Source of the DNA: Tannerellaceae bacterium
GTDB taxonomy: Bacteria > Bacteroidota > Bacteroidia > Bacteroidales > Tannerellaceae
Direction: 5' to 3'
Assembly: GCA_031288515.1 (NCBI GenBank)
Contig: JAITRG010000066.1
Coordinates: forward strand, 184 to 64,183
DNA length: 64,000 nt
This document shows positions 1 to 16,287 of the stretch, in pieces. A program made the translations under genes and the position numbers. Position 1 is the stretch's first letter; each line of letters begins with the position of its first letter. Below the pieces are notes generated by a model, which was not told where the DNA came from, made no database searches, and worked only from the letters and a program-made list of their open reading frames with translations.

Positions 1-936
1 TACACATATGAAAACAAAGCCTTTACCACCACGTTGCATACAGGCGGTGAGTATACCGGAGCGTTTACCGCAGAGGTGGTTTGGGCTGATGCTTTGGTTA
101 TCAGCGGTACGCCCACGGTTACGGGTTCCGGCAATACTGCTGAGGTGACAGTGAAAACCAATGCTTCTGTTTCCGGTAATGCTGTGGTGAAGATCTGCCG
201 ATCGGATAATGGGGAAACAGTCTGGTCTTATCACATCTGGGTGACGGATTATACGGGAGCCGAAACTTATACCAATACGTACACGTTTAGCTCCAAACAG
301 TATGAATTTATCTTTATGGATCGCAACCTGGGCGCCACCTTTGCCGGCACTGGCACTGGCCTCGGCACGGGTTTGTTCTACCAGTGGGGCAGAAAGGATC
401 CTTTCCCTGCTACTTTGGAACCAGATGACACCCAGCTGGGTGGTGGTTCTTTCACAGCCGTCAAAACATCTGATGTAAACGGTACGGTTGCCAATGCCAT
501 CAAGAATCCGGGGGTATTTTATTTTGGAAACTCAGGCACCGGCGATTGGCTTTATGTTTCCAATAATACCTTGTGGGGTTATGCATCCGATGGTGGCACA
601 AAGACGATTTACGATCCTTGTCCTTCAGGTTGGCGCGTTCCTGTCAATCCGGATCGAGATGAATATAGAAGCCCTTGGAAGGGATTCACATCGTCCAACG
701 GTGGAACATGGAACAATGGTTACAGTTGGGGTACTAACGCCGCGTACCCCGCCGCCGGGTTCCGTAGTAACTACTCCGGAAGTATCCTCGACGCAGGCAC
801 CGCCGGATGCTACTGGAGTGCATCGCCGAACGGTAACATCTACGCCTTAGATCTGTACTTCATCAGTGGAGGCGTCTACAAAAGTAGCTACGCCGCCCGG
901 ATCGGTGGGCGTTTGGTGCGTTGTGTTCAAGAATAG
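1..936 (+). CDS. 5'-truncated fimbrial-tip/FISUMP-like surface protein with C-type-lectin-like C-terminus; probable DGR target
   Basis: Frame is open from base 1. Motifs MDRNLGA, GLFYQWGRKDPF, YDPCPSGWRVP, YPAAGFR, CYWSAS and terminal VRCVQE are typical of Bacteroidetes fimbrial-tip/major-paralogous-domain proteins. Confidence 0.75.
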   Translation, partial: YTYENKAFTTTLHTGGEYTGAFTAEVVWADALVISGTPTVTGSGNTAEVTVKTNASVSGNAVVKICRSDNGETVWSYHIWVTDYTGAETYTNTYTFSSKQYEFIFMDRNLGATFAGTGTGLGTGLFYQWGRKDPFPATLEPDDTQLGGGSFTAVKTSDVNGTVANAIKNPGVFYFGNSGTGDWLYVSNNTLWGYASDGGTKTIYDPCPSGWRVPVNPDRDEYRSPWKGFTSSNGGTWNNGYSWGTNAAYPAAGFRSNYSGSILDAGTAGCYWSASPNGNIYALDLYFISGGVYKSSYAARIGGRLVRCVQE

Positions 937-986
937 CCTATAGCCTTACAGCCTCACCCCGTGCCTTTGTTTTTAGCATTAGCATT

Positions 987-1021
987 ATGGGCAGTTCATG
1001 ATGTGAATCACAACTGCCCAT
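987..1021 (+). other. Stem-loop 50 bp downstream of the putative DGR variable region
   Basis: ATGGGCAGTT (987-996) pairs with AACTGCCCAT (1012-1021), with an inner TGAT/ATCA pair. Confidence 0.55.
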
Positions 1022-1065
1022 TATATAAATAAGTAGATTTTGCACCAACAGCCTCACCCCAAAGG

Positions 1066-1268
1066 GGAAGGTCTTCAAAAGCCCACCAAATGATCCCCTA
1101 TAAATAGGGAAGGTCTTCAAAAGTCCACCAAATGATCCCCTATAAATAGGGAAGGTCTTCAAAACTCCACCAAATGGTTGTCTATAAATAGGAAAGGTCT
1201 TCAAAACTCCACCAAATGGTTGCCTATAAATAGGGAAGGTCTTCAAAACTACACTAAATGGTTTCACC
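1066..1268. repeat. 42-bp tandem repeat, about 4.8 copies
   Basis: GGAAGGTCTTCAAAA recurs at 1066, 1108, 1150, 1192 (one mismatch) and 1234; the rest of the unit drifts gradually (CCACCAAATG..CTATAAATAG). Confidence 0.95.
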
Positions 1269-11930: not shown

Positions 11931-13856
11931 ATGAGAAAAATTATAAGATTAATAACCGGTATATCGTTATCATGCATGTTATTATTCTGTTCATGTAACG
12001 ACTACCTATCCATAGTGCCGGATGATATTCCTTCGATGGAACACGTATTCAACAGCCACACAACTACGGAACAATTTCTTTTTACATGTTATTCTTATTT
12101 ACCCAATCCTGCCGATCTTCTGGCAACGCAGGGCATGATGTCGAGCCGCGAATGTTGGTTCCGTCCCGAAGGATGGTATTGGCTAGCCGGCGACTCCAAC
12201 GGAGGTAATTTTTATACATGGCATATTGCCAGGGGATTGCAAAACTCTAATAACCCATATACAAATTACTGGGATGGAGGACAGGGAGGAATACCATTAT
12301 TCAATGCTATCCGCGACTGCAATATCTTTCTCGAAAACATAGACAATGCTGTCGACGTAGAACCATACGAGAAAAAACGCTGGACTGCCGAGGTGAAATT
12401 CCTGAAAGCTTTTTATCATTATTACCTGATGCGGATGTACGGGCCTATTCCTGTCATCAGAGAGAATATTCCGGTAGGCGCGCTCACCAAAGAAGTACAG
12501 GTATATCGCGAACCGCTTGAAGATGTGGCCAACTACATTGTATCGCTGTTGGATGAAGCCTATTCCGAAAAAGAATTGCCCGCTTCCATCATAAACGAAG
12601 CTGAAGAGCTGGGACGTATTACTAAACCCATTGTTTTGTCCATAAAAGCACAGGTATTGACGTTGATGGCAAGCCCGTTGTTCAATGGTAATCCAACCTA
12701 CCGTAACTTTGCCGACAAACGGGGAATACTTCTCTTTCCTCAAGAGTACAATCCTGACAAATGGCGCGTCGCTGCGGAAGCCCTTAAAGCCGCTATTAAC
12801 TGCGCCGAAAATGAAGATAACAGGAGCTTGTTCCGGTTCGAAGACCCTATGATGCAATTATCGCCGGCTCTTCAACAAGAACTGACAATTAGAGATGCCA
12901 TTACGGAACGGTGGAACAATGAAATTATCTGGGCGTCAACCAAATCCGAAGATATGTTGCAACGTTTGTCTACCGTACCTACCAGTGCTACCGATTCATG
13001 GATGCATGTGGCGGCTGTTTCTCCTACATTGGACGTTGCGGAACTATTTTATACCGATAATGGATTACCTATCCAGGAAGACAAGGAATATCTCATCGCT
13101 TATCCGGACATATACGTCACATCCAAAGCTACGGCGGTGGATGCCGACTATATACGTGAGGGCTTTGAAACCGCGAACCTGCATTTCCACCGCGAACCCC
13201 GTTTCTATGCTTCATTAACGTTCGACGGAGGATACTACTTCGGGAATGGCAATGTGAAGAGAAACATAGATATGAAGTACGGAACAACCGGAGGAAAGAG
13301 AGGCCCGGACAGATATTCCATTACAGGTTATTTCCCTAAGAAACTGGTAAACAGAGAATCGGTATATTCTTCTAATGGATGGACAAGCCATTTTTATACT
13401 TATCCTTATATACGTCTGGCTGATTTATATCTCCTCTATGCCGAAGTCCTGAATGAGGTAAAAGCCACTCCCGACGAAGAGGTATATTATTACATCGATA
13501 AAGTCAGAGAGAGAGCGGGGCTGAAAGGCGTGGAGGAAACATGGAATTCCACGGTATCCATACATCCCGAATATATTGCAAACAAAGACCGCATGAGAGA
13601 TATTATACATCGCGAGCGCCTAATTGAGCTGGCGTTCGAAAATACGCCTTATTGGGATATTCTGAGATGGAAAGAAGGGGAAAAACGCTGGAACGGAACC
13701 GTAAGAGGATGGAATGTCAATGGGAAAAGTACAGACAGTTTCTATAATGTAACGACTATCGGCACAACCTCATTCTCATATAAAGATTATTTAACCCCTA
13801 TCTCTTTAGGTTCCCTGGATAGAAATACCAATCTTGTACAGAATCCGGGATGGTAG
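11931..13856 (+). CDS. SusD/RagB-family lipoprotein
   Basis: Lipobox CSC-NDYLSIVP, IRLADLYLLYAE, RERLIELAFE, terminal LVQNPGW. Confidence 0.96.
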   Translation: MRKIIRLITGISLSCMLLFCSCNDYLSIVPDDIPSMEHVFNSHTTTEQFLFTCYSYLPNPADLLATQGMMSSRECWFRPEGWYWLAGDSNGGNFYTWHIARGLQNSNNPYTNYWDGGQGGIPLFNAIRDCNIFLENIDNAVDVEPYEKKRWTAEVKFLKAFYHYYLMRMYGPIPVIRENIPVGALTKEVQVYREPLEDVANYIVSLLDEAYSEKELPASIINEAEELGRITKPIVLSIKAQVLTLMASPLFNGNPTYRNFADKRGILLFPQEYNPDKWRVAAEALKAAINCAENEDNRSLFRFEDPMMQLSPALQQELTIRDAITERWNNEIIWASTKSEDMLQRLSTVPTSATDSWMHVAAVSPTLDVAELFYTDNGLPIQEDKEYLIAYPDIYVTSKATAVDADYIREGFETANLHFHREPRFYASLTFDGGYYFGNGNVKRNIDMKYGTTGGKRGPDRYSITGYFPKKLVNRESVYSSNGWTSHFYTYPYIRLADLYLLYAEVLNEVKATPDEEVYYYIDKVRERAGLKGVEETWNSTVSIHPEYIANKDRMRDIIHRERLIELAFENTPYWDILRWKEGEKRWNGTVRGWNVNGKSTDSFYNVTTIGTTSFSYKDYLTPISLGSLDRNTNLVQNPGW

Positions 13857-13887: not shown

Positions 13888-15096
13888 ATGAAAAATATAT
13901 TATTCATATTGGTGATTATTCTGTTTGTCGGATTTATAACAGGCTGCAAAGATGATTTTGTGGGACAACCACCGACAGATAGCCAGGCTCCCGCACCAGT
14001 CAGGAATCCGGTAGCGGTAAGTATACCGGGCGGGGCAAAAATTACATACGAACTTCCCGACAACAATGATTTACTTTACGTGAAAGCCGTCTATGTGATT
14101 AACGGTACAGAACGCAACACTTCTGCATCATTCAGCTCAAAAGTCCTCGAAATAAAAGGTTTCGGAACTACGGAATCGCAAACGGTATCGCTATACAGTG
14201 TCGACCGTAGCGGCAATATGTCGGAGCCCGTTAAAGTATCCATTACTCCGGGAACATCGCCGATAAGAATCATCAGTGAATCCATCCGTATGAAGGAAAC
14301 TTTCGGCGGCATTCAGATTACATGGGAAAACGCGAGTAAAGAGAATGTGGCGCTTTATATAGTAGAAATGGGCAAGGACGGGGATATGGACGAGCTGGAT
14401 ATTGCCTTCAGCAATGCGGAAAACGGGAAATACAGTGTGCGCGGATTGGGATCCATCGAACGTGTGTTTGGCGTATATGTACGCGACCGCTGGGACAATA
14501 TTTCGGAAACCCGAACGGCTACTTTAACGCCTTTGGCCGAATACAAGCTGGATAAATCATTGTGGCAAAGGCGAATCATACCAGGAGACAATCCAACCAA
14601 CTCAGGCTTTGGCCCATGGAGTCATATAAAAGACGAGATATGGGAAACGGACAATATATGGGAAACCCTTACATCGATGATACCGATCCTCTTTACCATA
14701 GATTTAGGCGTAACGACTAAATTAAGCCGTTATACATTATGGCAACGGAATGCTGGTTATCAATATAAAAACTCTAATCCGAAACGTTGGAAAATATATG
14801 GAACCGATATATTAAAGGGAAGTGAATCCGATGACTACTGGAAAACCGTAGAGGAAGACGCCGGTTGGAAAAAAGACTGGATATTACTTGGCGATGGTGA
14901 AACGTTTAAACCGTCGGGCGATGGTCCTGTTACACAGGAAGACCTTGAATATGCCTTGCAGGGATATTCATTCGACATGTCGATAGATGCTCCGCCGATA
15001 CGCTATGTCCGTTTTCATGTAACGGATATATGGGAAACGATCGGCTTGTTGCATATTTCGGAACTTTCATTTTGGGGTGCAAGTGCAGAAGAATAA
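13888..15096 (+). CDS. PUL surface lipoprotein (DUF4959/DUF5126/DUF5000-like)
   Basis: Lipobox ITGC, GGAKITYELP..DLLYVKAVY, SVDRSGNMSEP, FTIDLG, C-terminal ISELSFWG. Confidence 0.8.
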   Translation: MKNILFILVIILFVGFITGCKDDFVGQPPTDSQAPAPVRNPVAVSIPGGAKITYELPDNNDLLYVKAVYVINGTERNTSASFSSKVLEIKGFGTTESQTVSLYSVDRSGNMSEPVKVSITPGTSPIRIISESIRMKETFGGIQITWENASKENVALYIVEMGKDGDMDELDIAFSNAENGKYSVRGLGSIERVFGVYVRDRWDNISETRTATLTPLAEYKLDKSLWQRRIIPGDNPTNSGFGPWSHIKDEIWETDNIWETLTSMIPILFTIDLGVTTKLSRYTLWQRNAGYQYKNSNPKRWKIYGTDILKGSESDDYWKTVEEDAGWKKDWILLGDGETFKPSGDGPVTQEDLEYALQGYSFDMSIDAPPIRYVRFHVTDIWETIGLLHISELSFWGASAEE

Positions 15097-15114
15097 AATT
15101 AATAAATCAAATTT

Positions 15115-16233
15115 ATGAGAATACGAAATTTAATATATTTCCTGGCAGGGCTTGCGATATTATTCAGCACTTCCTGTACAGAACTGAATGATAACATTCA
15201 GTCATATTTGGACCGTGGGGAAATCAATTACCTTGGACGTCCCGATTCGGCATATACCTTAGCCGGTAAACAGCGTGTCATTATCAACTGGCTGGTAAAA
15301 AACGATCCGAGGATAGAATCCTATACTATTTTCTGGAATGATTTGGACAACAAGAAGCAAGAAGTTTCCGGATCCATAGACCGCAATTTGCTGACTGATG
15401 GTTACATGTCGAATACTTTGGATGTTGAAGAAGGCTCATACCTGTTCAGCATTGTACATACGGGAAGCAAGGGTTATAATTCTATTGCAACGGAAGTAAT
15501 GGGCAATGCATATGGAGACATATACGCCTCCACGTTGCTTCCCCGCGAAATAGCTTCTGTAGCCGCATATGCGGATCATATCGAAATCAACTGGTCGCAG
15601 GCGGAGGAGAGTGTCGTCGATTTAGAATTGACTTATGAAGCGAATGATGGCAGTGAAAGAACGGTTAGGGTATCTGCTACCGAAATGCAAACTAATATTT
15701 ACGAATATAAGCAGCGAGGAAAATACTTTTGGGTAACATGGTTTCAACCGGAATCAACGATAGACAAGTTCAGCGTAACTTCAATTGAATATGAATTCCC
15801 GATAGTCAAATATACGTTAAATAAATCCGGCTGGACTGCTTCTGCACCGACAAGTCATTGGTGGGGAACCGGACCTGGTGCAGTGATCGACGATAATAAC
15901 AATTCTTATTGGCATTCAGCTGTAGACGAATCGGCATCGTCGCCAAACAGGCCTTATTATATTGAAGTCGATATGAAAAACATTAAGAATGTCTTATCCG
16001 TCACTGTTGAGAAGCGTTATGATCCGAAAGAAATAGAGATAAGAAGCAGCATCAATGGAACCGAATGGACAATGCTTGGCAGAGTAATATTTGACGGAGG
16101 TGAGCGTGATACTAAAACGTTGGAACTGAATGATGAAATTCAGGCTCAATTCCTCAGATTTTATATTACCGATAGTACTAGTGGAGACGGTCGTGGAGGT
16201 ATATTTGAAATAAACGTCTTAGGCTGGGATTAG
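15115..16233 (+). CDS. PUL surface lipoprotein (DUF4998-like plus F5/8-type C domain)
   Basis: Lipobox STSC, YLDRGEINYLGRPDS, C-terminal discoidin motifs (AVIDDNNNSYWHS, YIEVDM, QFLRFYIT). Confidence 0.8.
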   Translation: MRIRNLIYFLAGLAILFSTSCTELNDNIQSYLDRGEINYLGRPDSAYTLAGKQRVIINWLVKNDPRIESYTIFWNDLDNKKQEVSGSIDRNLLTDGYMSNTLDVEEGSYLFSIVHTGSKGYNSIATEVMGNAYGDIYASTLLPREIASVAAYADHIEINWSQAEESVVDLELTYEANDGSERTVRVSATEMQTNIYEYKQRGKYFWVTWFQPESTIDKFSVTSIEYEFPIVKYTLNKSGWTASAPTSHWWGTGPGAVIDDNNNSYWHSAVDESASSPNRPYYIEVDMKNIKNVLSVTVEKRYDPKEIEIRSSINGTEWTMLGRVIFDGGERDTKTLELNDEIQAQFLRFYITDSTSGDGRGGIFEINVLGWD

Positions 16234-16254
16234 GGCAAGAAGCCAGTAATATTT

Positions 16255-16287
16255 ATGAAAGTGTGTCTATTTATGACACACTTTCAT
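16255..16287 (+). terminator. Perfect 13-bp stem-loop between the lipoprotein genes and the hydrolases
   Basis: ATGAAAGTGTGTC-TATTTAT-GACACACTTTCAT followed by TTT. Confidence 0.6.

What the first reader, a model, noticed from the sequence alone, without database searches (positions are those of the whole stretch)
733..936. 3' end of the first gene has the codon signature of a DGR variable region
Between 736 and 903, 34 of 56 codons end in C. All 7 Tyr are TAC, all 4 Asn AAC and all 4 Ile ATC, whereas upstream the gene often uses T-ending codons. NNC codons are what adenine-specific mutagenesis of an AAC-rich template repeat leaves behind. The protein ends in the CLec-like pattern (YPAAGFR..YWSAS..R..G..VRCV) typical of Bacteroidetes DGR targets, and a hairpin follows 50 bp downstream. 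No template repeat or reverse transcriptase was found in this window, so the target would be served in trans or from upstream.
Basis: partly seen in the sequence, partly recalled or inferred. Interest (0 to 1): 0.7.

Follow-up and report, generated by a model that had tools for sequence, protein, structure and literature searches.

The report
DGR-type variable region in adhesin gene
The last ~190 bases of the window's first gene look like a variable region written by a diversity-generating retroelement (DGR) in a pilus-adhesin-like surface protein of a termite-gut Bacteroidales bacterium; this is a known kind of system, and the template and reverse transcriptase that would serve this copy were not found.

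Summary
The codon observation is real. In 736-903, 34 of 56 codons end in C, against 27% upstream (p about 1e-7).

The gene (1-936, cut at its 5' end by the contig end) belongs to a large paralogous FISUMP/TIGR02145 family in termite-gut Mediterranea MAGs. Full-length members carry an N-terminal type V pilin (Mfa-like) domain.

Across 25 paralogues the segment matching window 745-933 varies at codon positions 1 and 2 while position 3 stays C. That is the AAC-template footprint.

Public data hold many short Asn-rich ORFs that are template repeats of this class, flanked by bAvd and a DGR reverse transcriptase. One cassette (L112) differs from its own variable region (VR) only at template adenines. 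At the 17 positions where same-length template repeats (TRs) carry Asn, the window has NNY codons at all 17.

No TR, RT or Avd lies in the 64 kb window, and no cognate TR was found anywhere. This VR also departs from the scaffold shared by its sibling paralogues and is clonal in the one run that holds it.

Verdict: a DGR-written VR and a new member of a known kind. Whether it is still being diversified is unproven.

The parts
1..936 (+). 3' 311 codons plus stop of a surface-protein gene. Its 5' end is cut by the contig end: the recorded product P0001 has 372 aa and starts without Met.
   Evidence: ORF list and translation. P0001 lies on a 64,638-nt contig. Full-length paralogues are about 650 aa with an N-terminal PF13149 Mfa_like_1 domain.
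313..933 (+). FISUMP-like (TIGR02145 / Fib_succ_major / DUF8237-like) C-terminal domain, running from FMDRNLG to the end.
   Evidence: NCBIfam TIGR02145 E 0.021, 15.5 bits, below the cut-off of 41.65. Homologues are named FISUMP/TIGR02145. AF2 model pLDDT 90.9. Foldseek against BFVD matches 'Fibrobacter succinogenes major paralogous domain' proteins at E 5e-5 and 9e-4.
745..933 (+). Variable region (VR). It starts at TACCCCGCC, where the sibling paralogues become uniform in scaffold, and runs to the last sense codon.
   Evidence: TR-encoded ORFs match the window only at 742-933. Paralogue codon alignments. 17/17 NNY codons at TR-Asn positions.
760..912 (+). Hypervariable core: the codons that vary at positions 1 and 2 among paralogues, from TTC at 760 to CGT at 910.
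   Evidence: Per-column entropies. Among the 9 Roe453_bin87 VRs that share one scaffold, 46 sites carry 3 or more bases: 23 at codon position 1, 22 at position 2, 1 at position 3.
902..928 (+). 27-nt adenine-free stretch, the longest in the gene, encoding the invariant ...GGRLVRCV. It is a candidate for the 3' invariant, IMH-like end of the VR. A 19-nt adenine-free run (747-765) marks the 5' edge.
   Evidence: Run-length scan. That it acts as an IMH is inference only.
950..1030 (+). Conserved 3' flank of the gene family (AGCCTCACCCC...TTAGCATTAGCATTA) with a hairpin at 989-1019. Probably an end-of-operon element rather than a DGR target hairpin.
   Evidence: Found on the same strand after paralogues in L004, L005, L006, L013 and L016, and only after the last gene of the L109 array. 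Fold. Comparison with cassette hairpins.

Best explanation
Window 745-933 is a DGR variable region.

What it is. It encodes the ligand-binding C-terminal face of a FISUMP-type domain in a protein of a type V pilus tip-adhesin-like family. The host is a termite-gut Mediterranea (Bacteroidaceae).

How it was made. The sequence was written by mutagenic retrohoming. cDNA is made from a template repeat of the class ...PA(A/S)G-R-NN-S-G-S-NN-VG-S-NG-N-YWSASPN...NLNFNSGNVN-NNNN-RANG-SVRC. Template adenines (AAC/AAT Asn codons) are copied as random bases, which gives NNC/NNT codons between adenine-free scaffold codons.

Where the machinery is. The TR, Avd and RT lie outside this 64-kb window, so this gene would be a remote (non-adjacent) target.

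Shown versus inferred. The footprint, the family-wide pattern, and the existence of matching TR-Avd-RT cassettes in relatives are shown. That this particular copy was itself a homing target is inferred. I put the chance that it is still serviced at roughly 0.35-0.45.
For: 1. Internal footprint. 61% C-ending codons against 27% upstream, p about 1e-7. Adenine-free runs flank the core.

2. Paralogue pattern. In 25 paralogues from three Mediterranea MAGs, the homologous segment has high entropy at codon positions 1 and 2 with position 3 fixed as C; column 209, for example, is C in 21 of 21. Among 9 Roe453_bin87 paralogues, third-position differences are 0.053 in the VR against 0.266 upstream, while position 1+2 differences are 0.306 against 0.175. 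Of 46 sites with 3 or more bases, 45 are at positions 1 or 2, and A is the commonest base there.

3. Matching TRs exist. A synthetic TR peptide retrieved 120 short Asn-rich ORFs. The ones examined lie between bAvd and a DGR RT (L111, L112).

4. Positive control. The L112 TR and its own VR show 20 mismatches, all at TR adenines, and none elsewhere inside the VR.

5. Register. Against 14 TR ORFs with the same YWS-to-VRC spacing, the window has NNY codons at all 17 Asn-consensus positions (14 NNC), encoding 9 different residues. It is identical at 21 of 28 non-Asn positions.

6. An RT in the same sample. A DGR RT (P0281) exists in MAG Roe453_bin87. Its contig is present at 100% identity and depth 12.7 in run X1, the only run that holds the window, where the window's depth is about 10.

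7. Literature. This VR class and pilus-adhesin targets are established (PMC5758913; bioRxiv 10.1101/2024.11.15.621889).
Against: - No TR, RT or Avd in the window.
- No RT within 10 kb of the VR of any Mediterranea paralogue, many of which lie at contig ends. The one exception by a small margin is L011, whose VR lies about 11 kb from P0281 on the same contig.
- No cognate TR found. The L111 and L112 TRs give 50-58 non-adenine mismatches to this VR. Two viral contigs pattern scans were empty. My single metagenome scan was wasted on a pattern that poly-A satisfies.
- The window VR is 2 codons shorter than the Roe453_bin87 scaffold. It differs from that scaffold at normally invariant, non-adenine sites (CGT, TAC TCC, GCA, TTA GAT, AAA, ATC GGT GGG CGT TTG). 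Its third-position distance to those VRs (0.25-0.28) is only slightly below its upstream third-position distance (0.26-0.42), far above the 0.053 seen among those VRs themselves.
- The GC hairpin that starts a few bases after the stop codon in L112, L007 and L016 is absent here.
- In X1 the VR is carried by one contig whose depth (9.84) equals that of the flank (10.1). No other contig at 80% likeness or more covers 844-909. So there is no visible heterogeneity and no sibling or TR of that likeness.
- The RT found in the MAG is tied to a different VR class and looks degenerate.
Confidence: 0.8

Rival explanations
1. Fossil or orphan VR. The segment carries a DGR footprint by descent, from a diversified ancestor or by recombination with a diversified paralogue, but this copy is no longer a homing target, or never was one. 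Its TR has been lost or has diverged, and ordinary mutation is slowly eroding the signature.
For: - The scaffold departs from the sibling VRs at non-adenine sites, with a 2-codon deletion.
- There is no third-position homogenisation with those VRs.
- The stop-proximal GC hairpin is missing.
- The VR is clonal in X1 and has no sibling or TR at 80% likeness or more.
- Other family members are clearly decaying: four array paralogues have only 29-30% C-ending codons in the VR, and L004 has an in-frame TGA.
- The MAG's RT locus has a truncated TR and no avd.
- The gene is a mosaic relative to L004, which points to recombination among paralogues.
Against: - The NNY signature is still sharp: 17/17 at TR-Asn positions and 61% C-ending codons.
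- The ORF is intact up to the stop codon.
- A different, unassembled TR type would explain the scaffold differences equally well. TRs of the same length class exist.
- Logan contigs drop rare variants, so clonality is weak evidence.
Confidence: 0.4
2. No DGR is involved. A locally GC-rich, C-ending codon bias, combined with diversifying selection and gene conversion among adhesin paralogues, produced the pattern.
For: - The family is large, mosaic and clearly recombining.
- Several other 56-codon windows in the window's ORFs reach 30 or more C-ending codons.
- No TR was found.
Against: - Selection or conversion does not explain variation confined to codon positions 1 and 2 with position 3 fixed (45 of 46 multi-base sites).
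- It does not explain fivefold lower third-position divergence inside the VR than upstream.
- It does not explain the exact register with Asn positions of real TRs.
- It does not explain the bona fide cassette in a homologous protein (L112).
Confidence: 0.07
3. Assembly artefact: the gene's 3' end is a chimera of paralogous reads joined at the contig edge.
For: The gene lies at a contig end, and many paralogues break assemblies.
Against: An independent Logan contig of run X1 spans 709-979 at the same depth as the unique flank, 9.84 against 10.1. Its 4 mismatches to the window did not appear in the differences table, so I take them to lie near the contig's ends. L001 continues at 100% identity from 1147.
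Confidence: 0.02

Closest known systems
Bacteroides DGRs that diversify type V pilus tip adhesins (BfrT and relatives; Macadangdang et al., bioRxiv 10.1101/2024.11.15.621889)
   Same: - Bacteroidales host.
- The target family has an N-terminal type V pilin (Mfa-like) domain and a C-terminal VR at the very end of the protein.
- The TR is Asn-rich.
- Cassettes with bAvd-TR-RT sit next to a homologous target on an ICE-like element (L112).
   Different: - Here the target has no cassette within 64 kb.
- The host is a termite-gut Mediterranea.
- The family is expanded to more than 20 paralogues, including a 10-gene tandem array.
- At least 9 dispersed VRs share one scaffold.
- This copy's N-terminal pilin domain is not in the window.
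'Category d' / CLec2 VRs (DUF1566, DUF823, Fib_succ_major), exemplified by Legionella LdtA (Wu et al. 2018, PMC5758913)
   Same: The VR overlaps weak and mixed Fib_succ_major/DUF1566/DUF8237 matches. The motif is ...G.R....G....G..G.YWS......L.F......R..G.SVRC. Some members have fimbrial-type appended domains.
   Different: LdtA is a lipoprotein with an adjacent cassette. Membership of this copy in an active DGR is unproven.
Treponema denticola TvpA DGR with remote targets
   Same: It is the precedent for one DGR serving several non-adjacent or remote VRs in trans; seven is the maximum in PMC5758913.
   Different: The fold class differs (FGE-sulfatase-type CLec), as does the phylum. There the TR-VR pairs are known.
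Bordetella phage BPP-1 Mtd/brt prototype
   Same: Adenine-specific TR-to-VR mutagenesis, AAC codon logic, and an invariant adenine-poor 3' end of the VR.
   Different: It is a phage tail-fibre target with an adjacent cassette, and its hairpin/cruciform lies immediately after the IMH. Here the nearest hairpin is 52 nt away and is shared by the gene family as a terminal element.

Membership tests
DGR target gene / variable region | A cognate template repeat that differs from the VR (almost) only at TR adenines | tested here: inconclusive
   None in the window. The TRs of L111 and L112 are not cognate, with 50-58 non-adenine mismatches. Viral-contig scans were empty. The metagenome scan was uninformative because its pattern is satisfied by poly-A. 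The window's own genome is not in the collections I could reach: the best match in genome contigs is 74%.
DGR target gene / variable region | A DGR-clade reverse transcriptase (and usually Avd) in the same genome | tested here: inconclusive
   Absent from the 64-kb window. A DGR RT (P0281, with IGDLTSQ...YVDD motifs) is present in MAG Roe453_bin87. Its contig is in run X1 at depth 12.7, against about 10 for the window. Assigning it to the same genome is an inference. That locus has no avd and only a truncated TR, which is of another class.
DGR target gene / variable region | Substitutions confined to sites that are adenine in the TR (codon positions 1 and 2 of AAC/AAT), seen among VRs or reads | tested here: met
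   Among paralogues, 45 of 46 multi-base sites are at positions 1 or 2, position 3 is fixed, and A is the commonest base there. The window has NNY codons at all 17 TR-Asn positions. This is family-level evidence. Read-level variation of this copy was not seen: the contigs are clonal.
DGR target gene / variable region | VR at the C-terminus of a C-type-lectin-fold (or Ig) ligand-binding domain | tested here: inconclusive
   The VR is C-terminal (met). The fold matches FISUMP-domain proteins in BFVD at E 5e-5. Against the PDB nothing is significant: short matches to 4eps, Lcl and LOX-1/CLEC9A C-type-lectin-like domains at E 0.37 or worse. The assignment of the FISUMP/DUF1566 class to CLec2 rests on PMC5758913.
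DGR target gene / variable region | An invariant GC-rich 3' end (IMH) followed closely by a hairpin/cruciform | tested here: not met
   A 27-nt adenine-free 3' stretch is present at 902-928. No hairpin follows within a few bases of the stop codon, unlike L112, L007 and L016. The 989-1019 hairpin is 52 nt away. This feature is not universal among DGRs.
FISUMP (TIGR02145 / PF09603 Fib_succ_major) domain proteins | A score above the curated model cut-off | tested here: not met
   TIGR02145 scores 15.5 bits against a cut-off of 41.65. Pfam gives no hit at E up to 1. Close homologues are annotated TIGR02145 / FISUMP and some carry PF09603 or PF26707. The fold match to FISUMP-domain proteins supports a divergent member.
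Type V pilus (Mfa/FimA-like) tip adhesins | An N-terminal type V pilin domain and a pilus operon context | not testable with these tools
   The 5' part of the gene is off the contig. Full-length paralogues carry PF13149 Mfa_like_1. The AF2 model of the available N-terminal part is an Ig-like beta sandwich.

The most novel reading that the evidence does not exclude
Termite-gut Mediterranea may carry an unusually large trans-acting DGR regulon. At least 9-10 dispersed pilus-adhesin paralogues share one VR scaffold, which would be kept uniform by a single unassembled TR. Further copies, including the window's gene, would be written from a second TR type. That would exceed the 7-8 targets per DGR recorded in PMC5758913, and would imply that DGR targets are routinely recruited and retired within one expanding adhesin family.
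Probability: 0.25. Interest if true: 0.6.

Novelty: new member of a known kind. Interest (0 to 1): 0.4.

Why it matters
DGR diversification of Bacteroidales type V pilus adhesins is already described for the human gut. This finding extends the same logic to a termite-gut lineage in which the target family has grown to more than 20 paralogues. It also shows that a VR can be recognised from codon signature alone, even when the cassette is absent from the contig. If the remote-target reading holds, it bears on how many genes one DGR can serve and on how targets are gained and lost. For genome annotation, 'hypothetical' FISUMP proteins at contig ends in such MAGs should be flagged as likely DGR targets and as causes of assembly breaks.

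Tried and rejected
- TR inside the window. blastn of 601-940 against the window found only chance 11-13-mers. tblastn with TR ORFs hit only the VR.

- RT or Avd inside the window or near paralogues. A motif regex and tblastn with two RTs and two Avds found nothing, apart from L064 itself.

- Metagenome scan for a cognate TR. I used an A/M/R/W pattern, which was my error: every degenerate code includes A, so the 27 hits are all poly-A stretches.

- Two viral contigs pattern scans for TRs of this class returned 0 hits.

- L064 (Rikenella microfusus). An avd and an RT lie 3.5 kb downstream of a 28%-identical homologue, but I found no TR matching its VR. I did not pursue it.

- The TRs of L111 and L112 were tested as templates for the window VR and rejected.

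- The RT lineage P0281/P0295 was followed into L113 and L114. It is tied to another VR class ('YWSCAV') and so is not an evident template for this VR. P0303, P0289 and P0308 come from other runs.

- Read-level variation. Only Logan contigs of one run (X1) hold this genome. There were no raw reads and no second sample, so the hypervariation test could not be done properly.

- PDB sequence search returned nothing relevant. Foldseek with the whole model was dominated by the Ig-like domain.

Full report
**Observation**

The ORF in frame 1 runs from the window's first base to a TAG at 934-936. In 736-903, 34 of 56 codons end in C, against 27% in the 245 upstream codons. Tyr is 7/7 TAC and Asn 4/4 AAC, whereas upstream TAT and AAT dominate. 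The Ile contrast is weak, since upstream Ile is already 5 ATC to 1 ATT. GC is 58.9%, against 49.4% upstream and 42.5% for the window.

The excess is far beyond chance: binomial p 1.3e-7, and only 38 of 14,297 windows of 56 codons in the window's long ORFs reach 34. The quoted C-terminal motif is there. A hairpin lies at 989-1019, 52 nt after the stop codon, with modest stability (z -1.86).

**What the gene is**

The recorded product (P0001, 372 aa) starts without Met on a 64,638-nt contig. The gene is therefore cut by the contig end, and at most a few hundred bases lie outside the window.

Pfam gives nothing, and TIGR02145 (FISUMP) scores below its cut-off. However, 2,119 homologues were found. 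The closest are from termite-gut metagenomes and 'Mediterranea sp.' MAGs, and many are annotated FISUMP/TIGR02145.

A scan of species-representative genomes found at least 11 paralogues in MAG Roe453_bin87, and more in Cd354_bin2 and Cc175_bin25. The window's own genome is not there: the best match is 74%. Many paralogues sit at contig ends with unrelated downstream genes. One 24-kb contig carries ten paralogues in tandem, each about 650 aa with an N-terminal PF13149 Mfa_like_1 (type V pilin) domain.

An AF2 model of the C-terminal 213 residues is confident (pLDDT 90.9). It matches FISUMP-domain proteins in BFVD at E 5e-5. Against the PDB nothing is significant. The weak top hits are a Bacteroides fimbrial protein (4eps), Legionella Lcl and C-type-lectin-like domains.

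**Comparative test of the DGR reading**

I aligned the C-terminal codons of 21, then 25, paralogues. From the codon matching window 745 (TAC CCC GCC...) to the VRC motif, many columns have high entropy at codon positions 1 and 2 while position 3 is C in nearly all sequences. Column 204 is C in 20 of 21 and column 209 in 21 of 21. Upstream, the usual pattern holds, with position 3 the most variable.

Nine Roe453_bin87 paralogues share an identical scaffold: TAC CCC GCC GCC GGG NNC CGC NNC NNC AGC AGT GGG AGT CTC NNC NNC GTA GGC ACC NNC GGG NNC TAC TGG AGT GCA TCG CCG NNC ... CGG GCG NNC GGG NTC TCG GTG CGT TGT.

Among these nine:
- Third-position differences are 0.053 in the VR against 0.266 upstream.
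- Position 1+2 differences are 0.306 against 0.175.
- Of 46 sites with three or more bases, 23 are at position 1, 22 at position 2 and 1 at position 3.
- A is the commonest base at those sites.

This is what repeated overwriting from one AAC-rich template produces. Ordinary divergence or selection does not.

In run X1, 116 contigs lie on one such VR. Changes involving adenine make up 88 of 135 changed places.

**Do templates of this class exist?**

A synthetic peptide with Asn at the variable positions retrieved 120 short ORFs of 50-114 aa that are Asn-rich copies of the motif. Many carry PF26707 or PF07603 hits, and one runs into the N-terminus of an RT.

The contexts confirm that they are template repeats. 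In L111 the order is bAvd, then TR. L112 holds a full cassette: DUF3575, DUF5119, a 672-aa FISUMP target, a small ORF, bAvd, TR, RT, then conjugation genes.

As a control, the L112 TR and its own VR differ at 20 positions. All 20 are TR adenines, and none lies elsewhere inside the VR.

**How the window's copy fits**

TR ORFs match the window only at 742-933. Fourteen TR ORFs have the same YWS-to-VRC spacing as the window. Against them, the window has NNY codons at all 17 positions where the TRs have Asn (14 NNC, 3 NNT; nine different residues). It is identical at 21 of 28 non-Asn positions. The longest adenine-free run of the gene (902-928) and another (747-765) bracket the variable core. I conclude that 745-933 was written by DGR-type adenine mutagenesis (confidence about 0.8).

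**What is missing**

The window holds no TR, no RT and no Avd. The TRs of L111 and L112 are not cognate, with 50-58 non-adenine mismatches.

The window VR is two codons shorter than the Roe453_bin87 scaffold. It differs from that scaffold at sites that are invariant and non-adenine there, and it is not homogenised with those VRs at third positions (0.25-0.28). So it was written from another TR type, or it has drifted since.

The GC hairpin that starts 4-6 nt after the stop codon in L112, L007 and L016 is absent here. That element follows single paralogues, and in the ten-gene array it follows only the last gene. This fits an end-of-operon element better than a homing signal.

In X1, the only public run that holds this genome, the VR lies on one contig of depth 9.84, equal to the flank at 10.1. 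Nothing else at 80% likeness or more covers 844-909. A cognate TR should be about 84% identical over the whole VR by my count, so this is a weak negative. It is also weak evidence against ongoing diversification, because contigs drop rare variants.

**An RT in the related genome**

A search with the L112 RT returned P0281, 'RNA-directed DNA polymerase [Mediterranea sp.]'. It lies on Roe453_bin87 contig JAITSN010000009 (L113). On the same contig a 1,733-aa paralogue with a Roe-type VR starts 5.8 kb downstream.

Run X1 carries this contig at 100% identity and depth 12.7. So a DGR RT coexists with the window's genome at similar abundance, and the two may be one genome.

However, upstream of this RT lie three tandem, adenine-depleted (10-15% A) mini VR-like units of another class (YPASG...WS.AV...VRCVQY). 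Only a 45-nt TR-like fragment is present, and there is no avd. A relative (L114; RT 82% identical) has bAvd, an RT and six such units of the 'YWSCAV' class. This RT lineage is therefore not an evident template source for the pilin VRs. Their TR remains unassembled or unbinned.

**Errors and limits**

My only metagenome-contig scan used a pattern in which every degenerate letter allowed A. It matched poly-A tracts only. It says nothing either way.

**Comparison with what is known**

Wu et al. [quoted passage not shown] Some of those targets have fimbrial-type appended domains. The same paper documents non-adjacent and remote targets, with a maximum of seven remote and eight tandem.

Macadangdang et al. 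(bioRxiv 10.1101/2024.11.15.621889) show that Bacteroides DGRs, often ICE-borne, diversify type V pilus tip adhesins.

The window's gene is a new member of that kind in a termite-gut lineage. The unusual aspect is the size of the paralogous target family and the number of VRs that share one scaffold. That lies outside the window, and the TR is still missing.

**Verdict**

Interest is moderate (0.4).

Noticed in passing
window 1065-1263: A 42-nt tandem repeat with 4.7 copies and 92% matches (consensus GGGAAGGTCTTCAAAACTCCACCAAATGGTTCCCTATAAATA), lying between the adhesin gene and uxaC. Among all loci fetched it was seen only here, and in the Logan contig L001 that covers the same place.
   Followed up: partly
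window 950-1030; also L004 1177-1205, L005 1852-1880, L006 1179-1207, L013 1462-1490, L016 754-782 (a second, more diverged copy follows about 70 nt downstream), L109 18067-18095: A conserved 3' element (AGCCTCACCCC...TTAGCATTAGCATTA plus a hairpin with a GUGA loop). It always lies on the gene's strand downstream of family members, in at least two MAGs and the window. In the 10-gene array it follows only the last gene.
   Followed up: partly
L109 1-17964 (Roe453_bin87 contig, JGI Ga0466728_069221): A tandem array of ten paralogous adhesin-like genes (nine with a Mfa_like_1 hit). Four members have lost the C-ending codon bias in the VR (29-30% C at position 3), while others keep 51-61%. This suggests a mix of serviced and decayed VRs.
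   Followed up: partly
L004 about 880-890 (Roe453_bin87 contig JAITSN010000087): The closest paralogue of the window gene has an in-frame TGA in place of the conserved Trp of SPWYGF. It is a likely pseudogene that still carries a Roe-type VR.
   Followed up: no
L113 1-1111 (Roe453_bin87) and L114 1-2841 (JGI 3300009856): Upstream of a DGR RT lie three (L113) or six (L114) tandem units of about 270 nt that encode only a VR/TR-like C-terminal motif ('YPASG...WSCAV...VRCVQ') with no N-terminal domain. The L113 units have 10-15% A (VR-like), while the L114 units are Asn-rich (TR-like). L113 lacks avd and has only a 45-nt TR fragment before the RT.
   Followed up: partly
L064 8921-16286 (Rikenella microfusus DSM 15922): A 788-aa homologue is followed by an inverted duplicate of its own last ~60 coding bases plus ~120 nt of 3' flank (11969-12146). 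An avd (13345-13728) and a DGR RT (14781-16286) follow. No TR matching the VR was found between avd and RT.
   Followed up: partly
L112 1847-6528 (Logan SRR25448488): A textbook ICE-type DGR next to a FISUMP target. VR and TR differ at 20 positions, all at TR adenines, and a 7-bp GC hairpin starts 4 nt after the stop codon. It served as the positive control.
   Followed up: yes
Roe453_bin87 loci L004-L008, L010, L011, L016, L018: Nine dispersed VRs share one identical scaffold, including synonymous sites. That is more targets per presumed TR than the maxima cited in PMC5758913 (7 remote, 8 tandem). One scaffold codon reads T-N-G (TCG or TTG), which would imply a TAG in the untranslated TR.
   Followed up: partly
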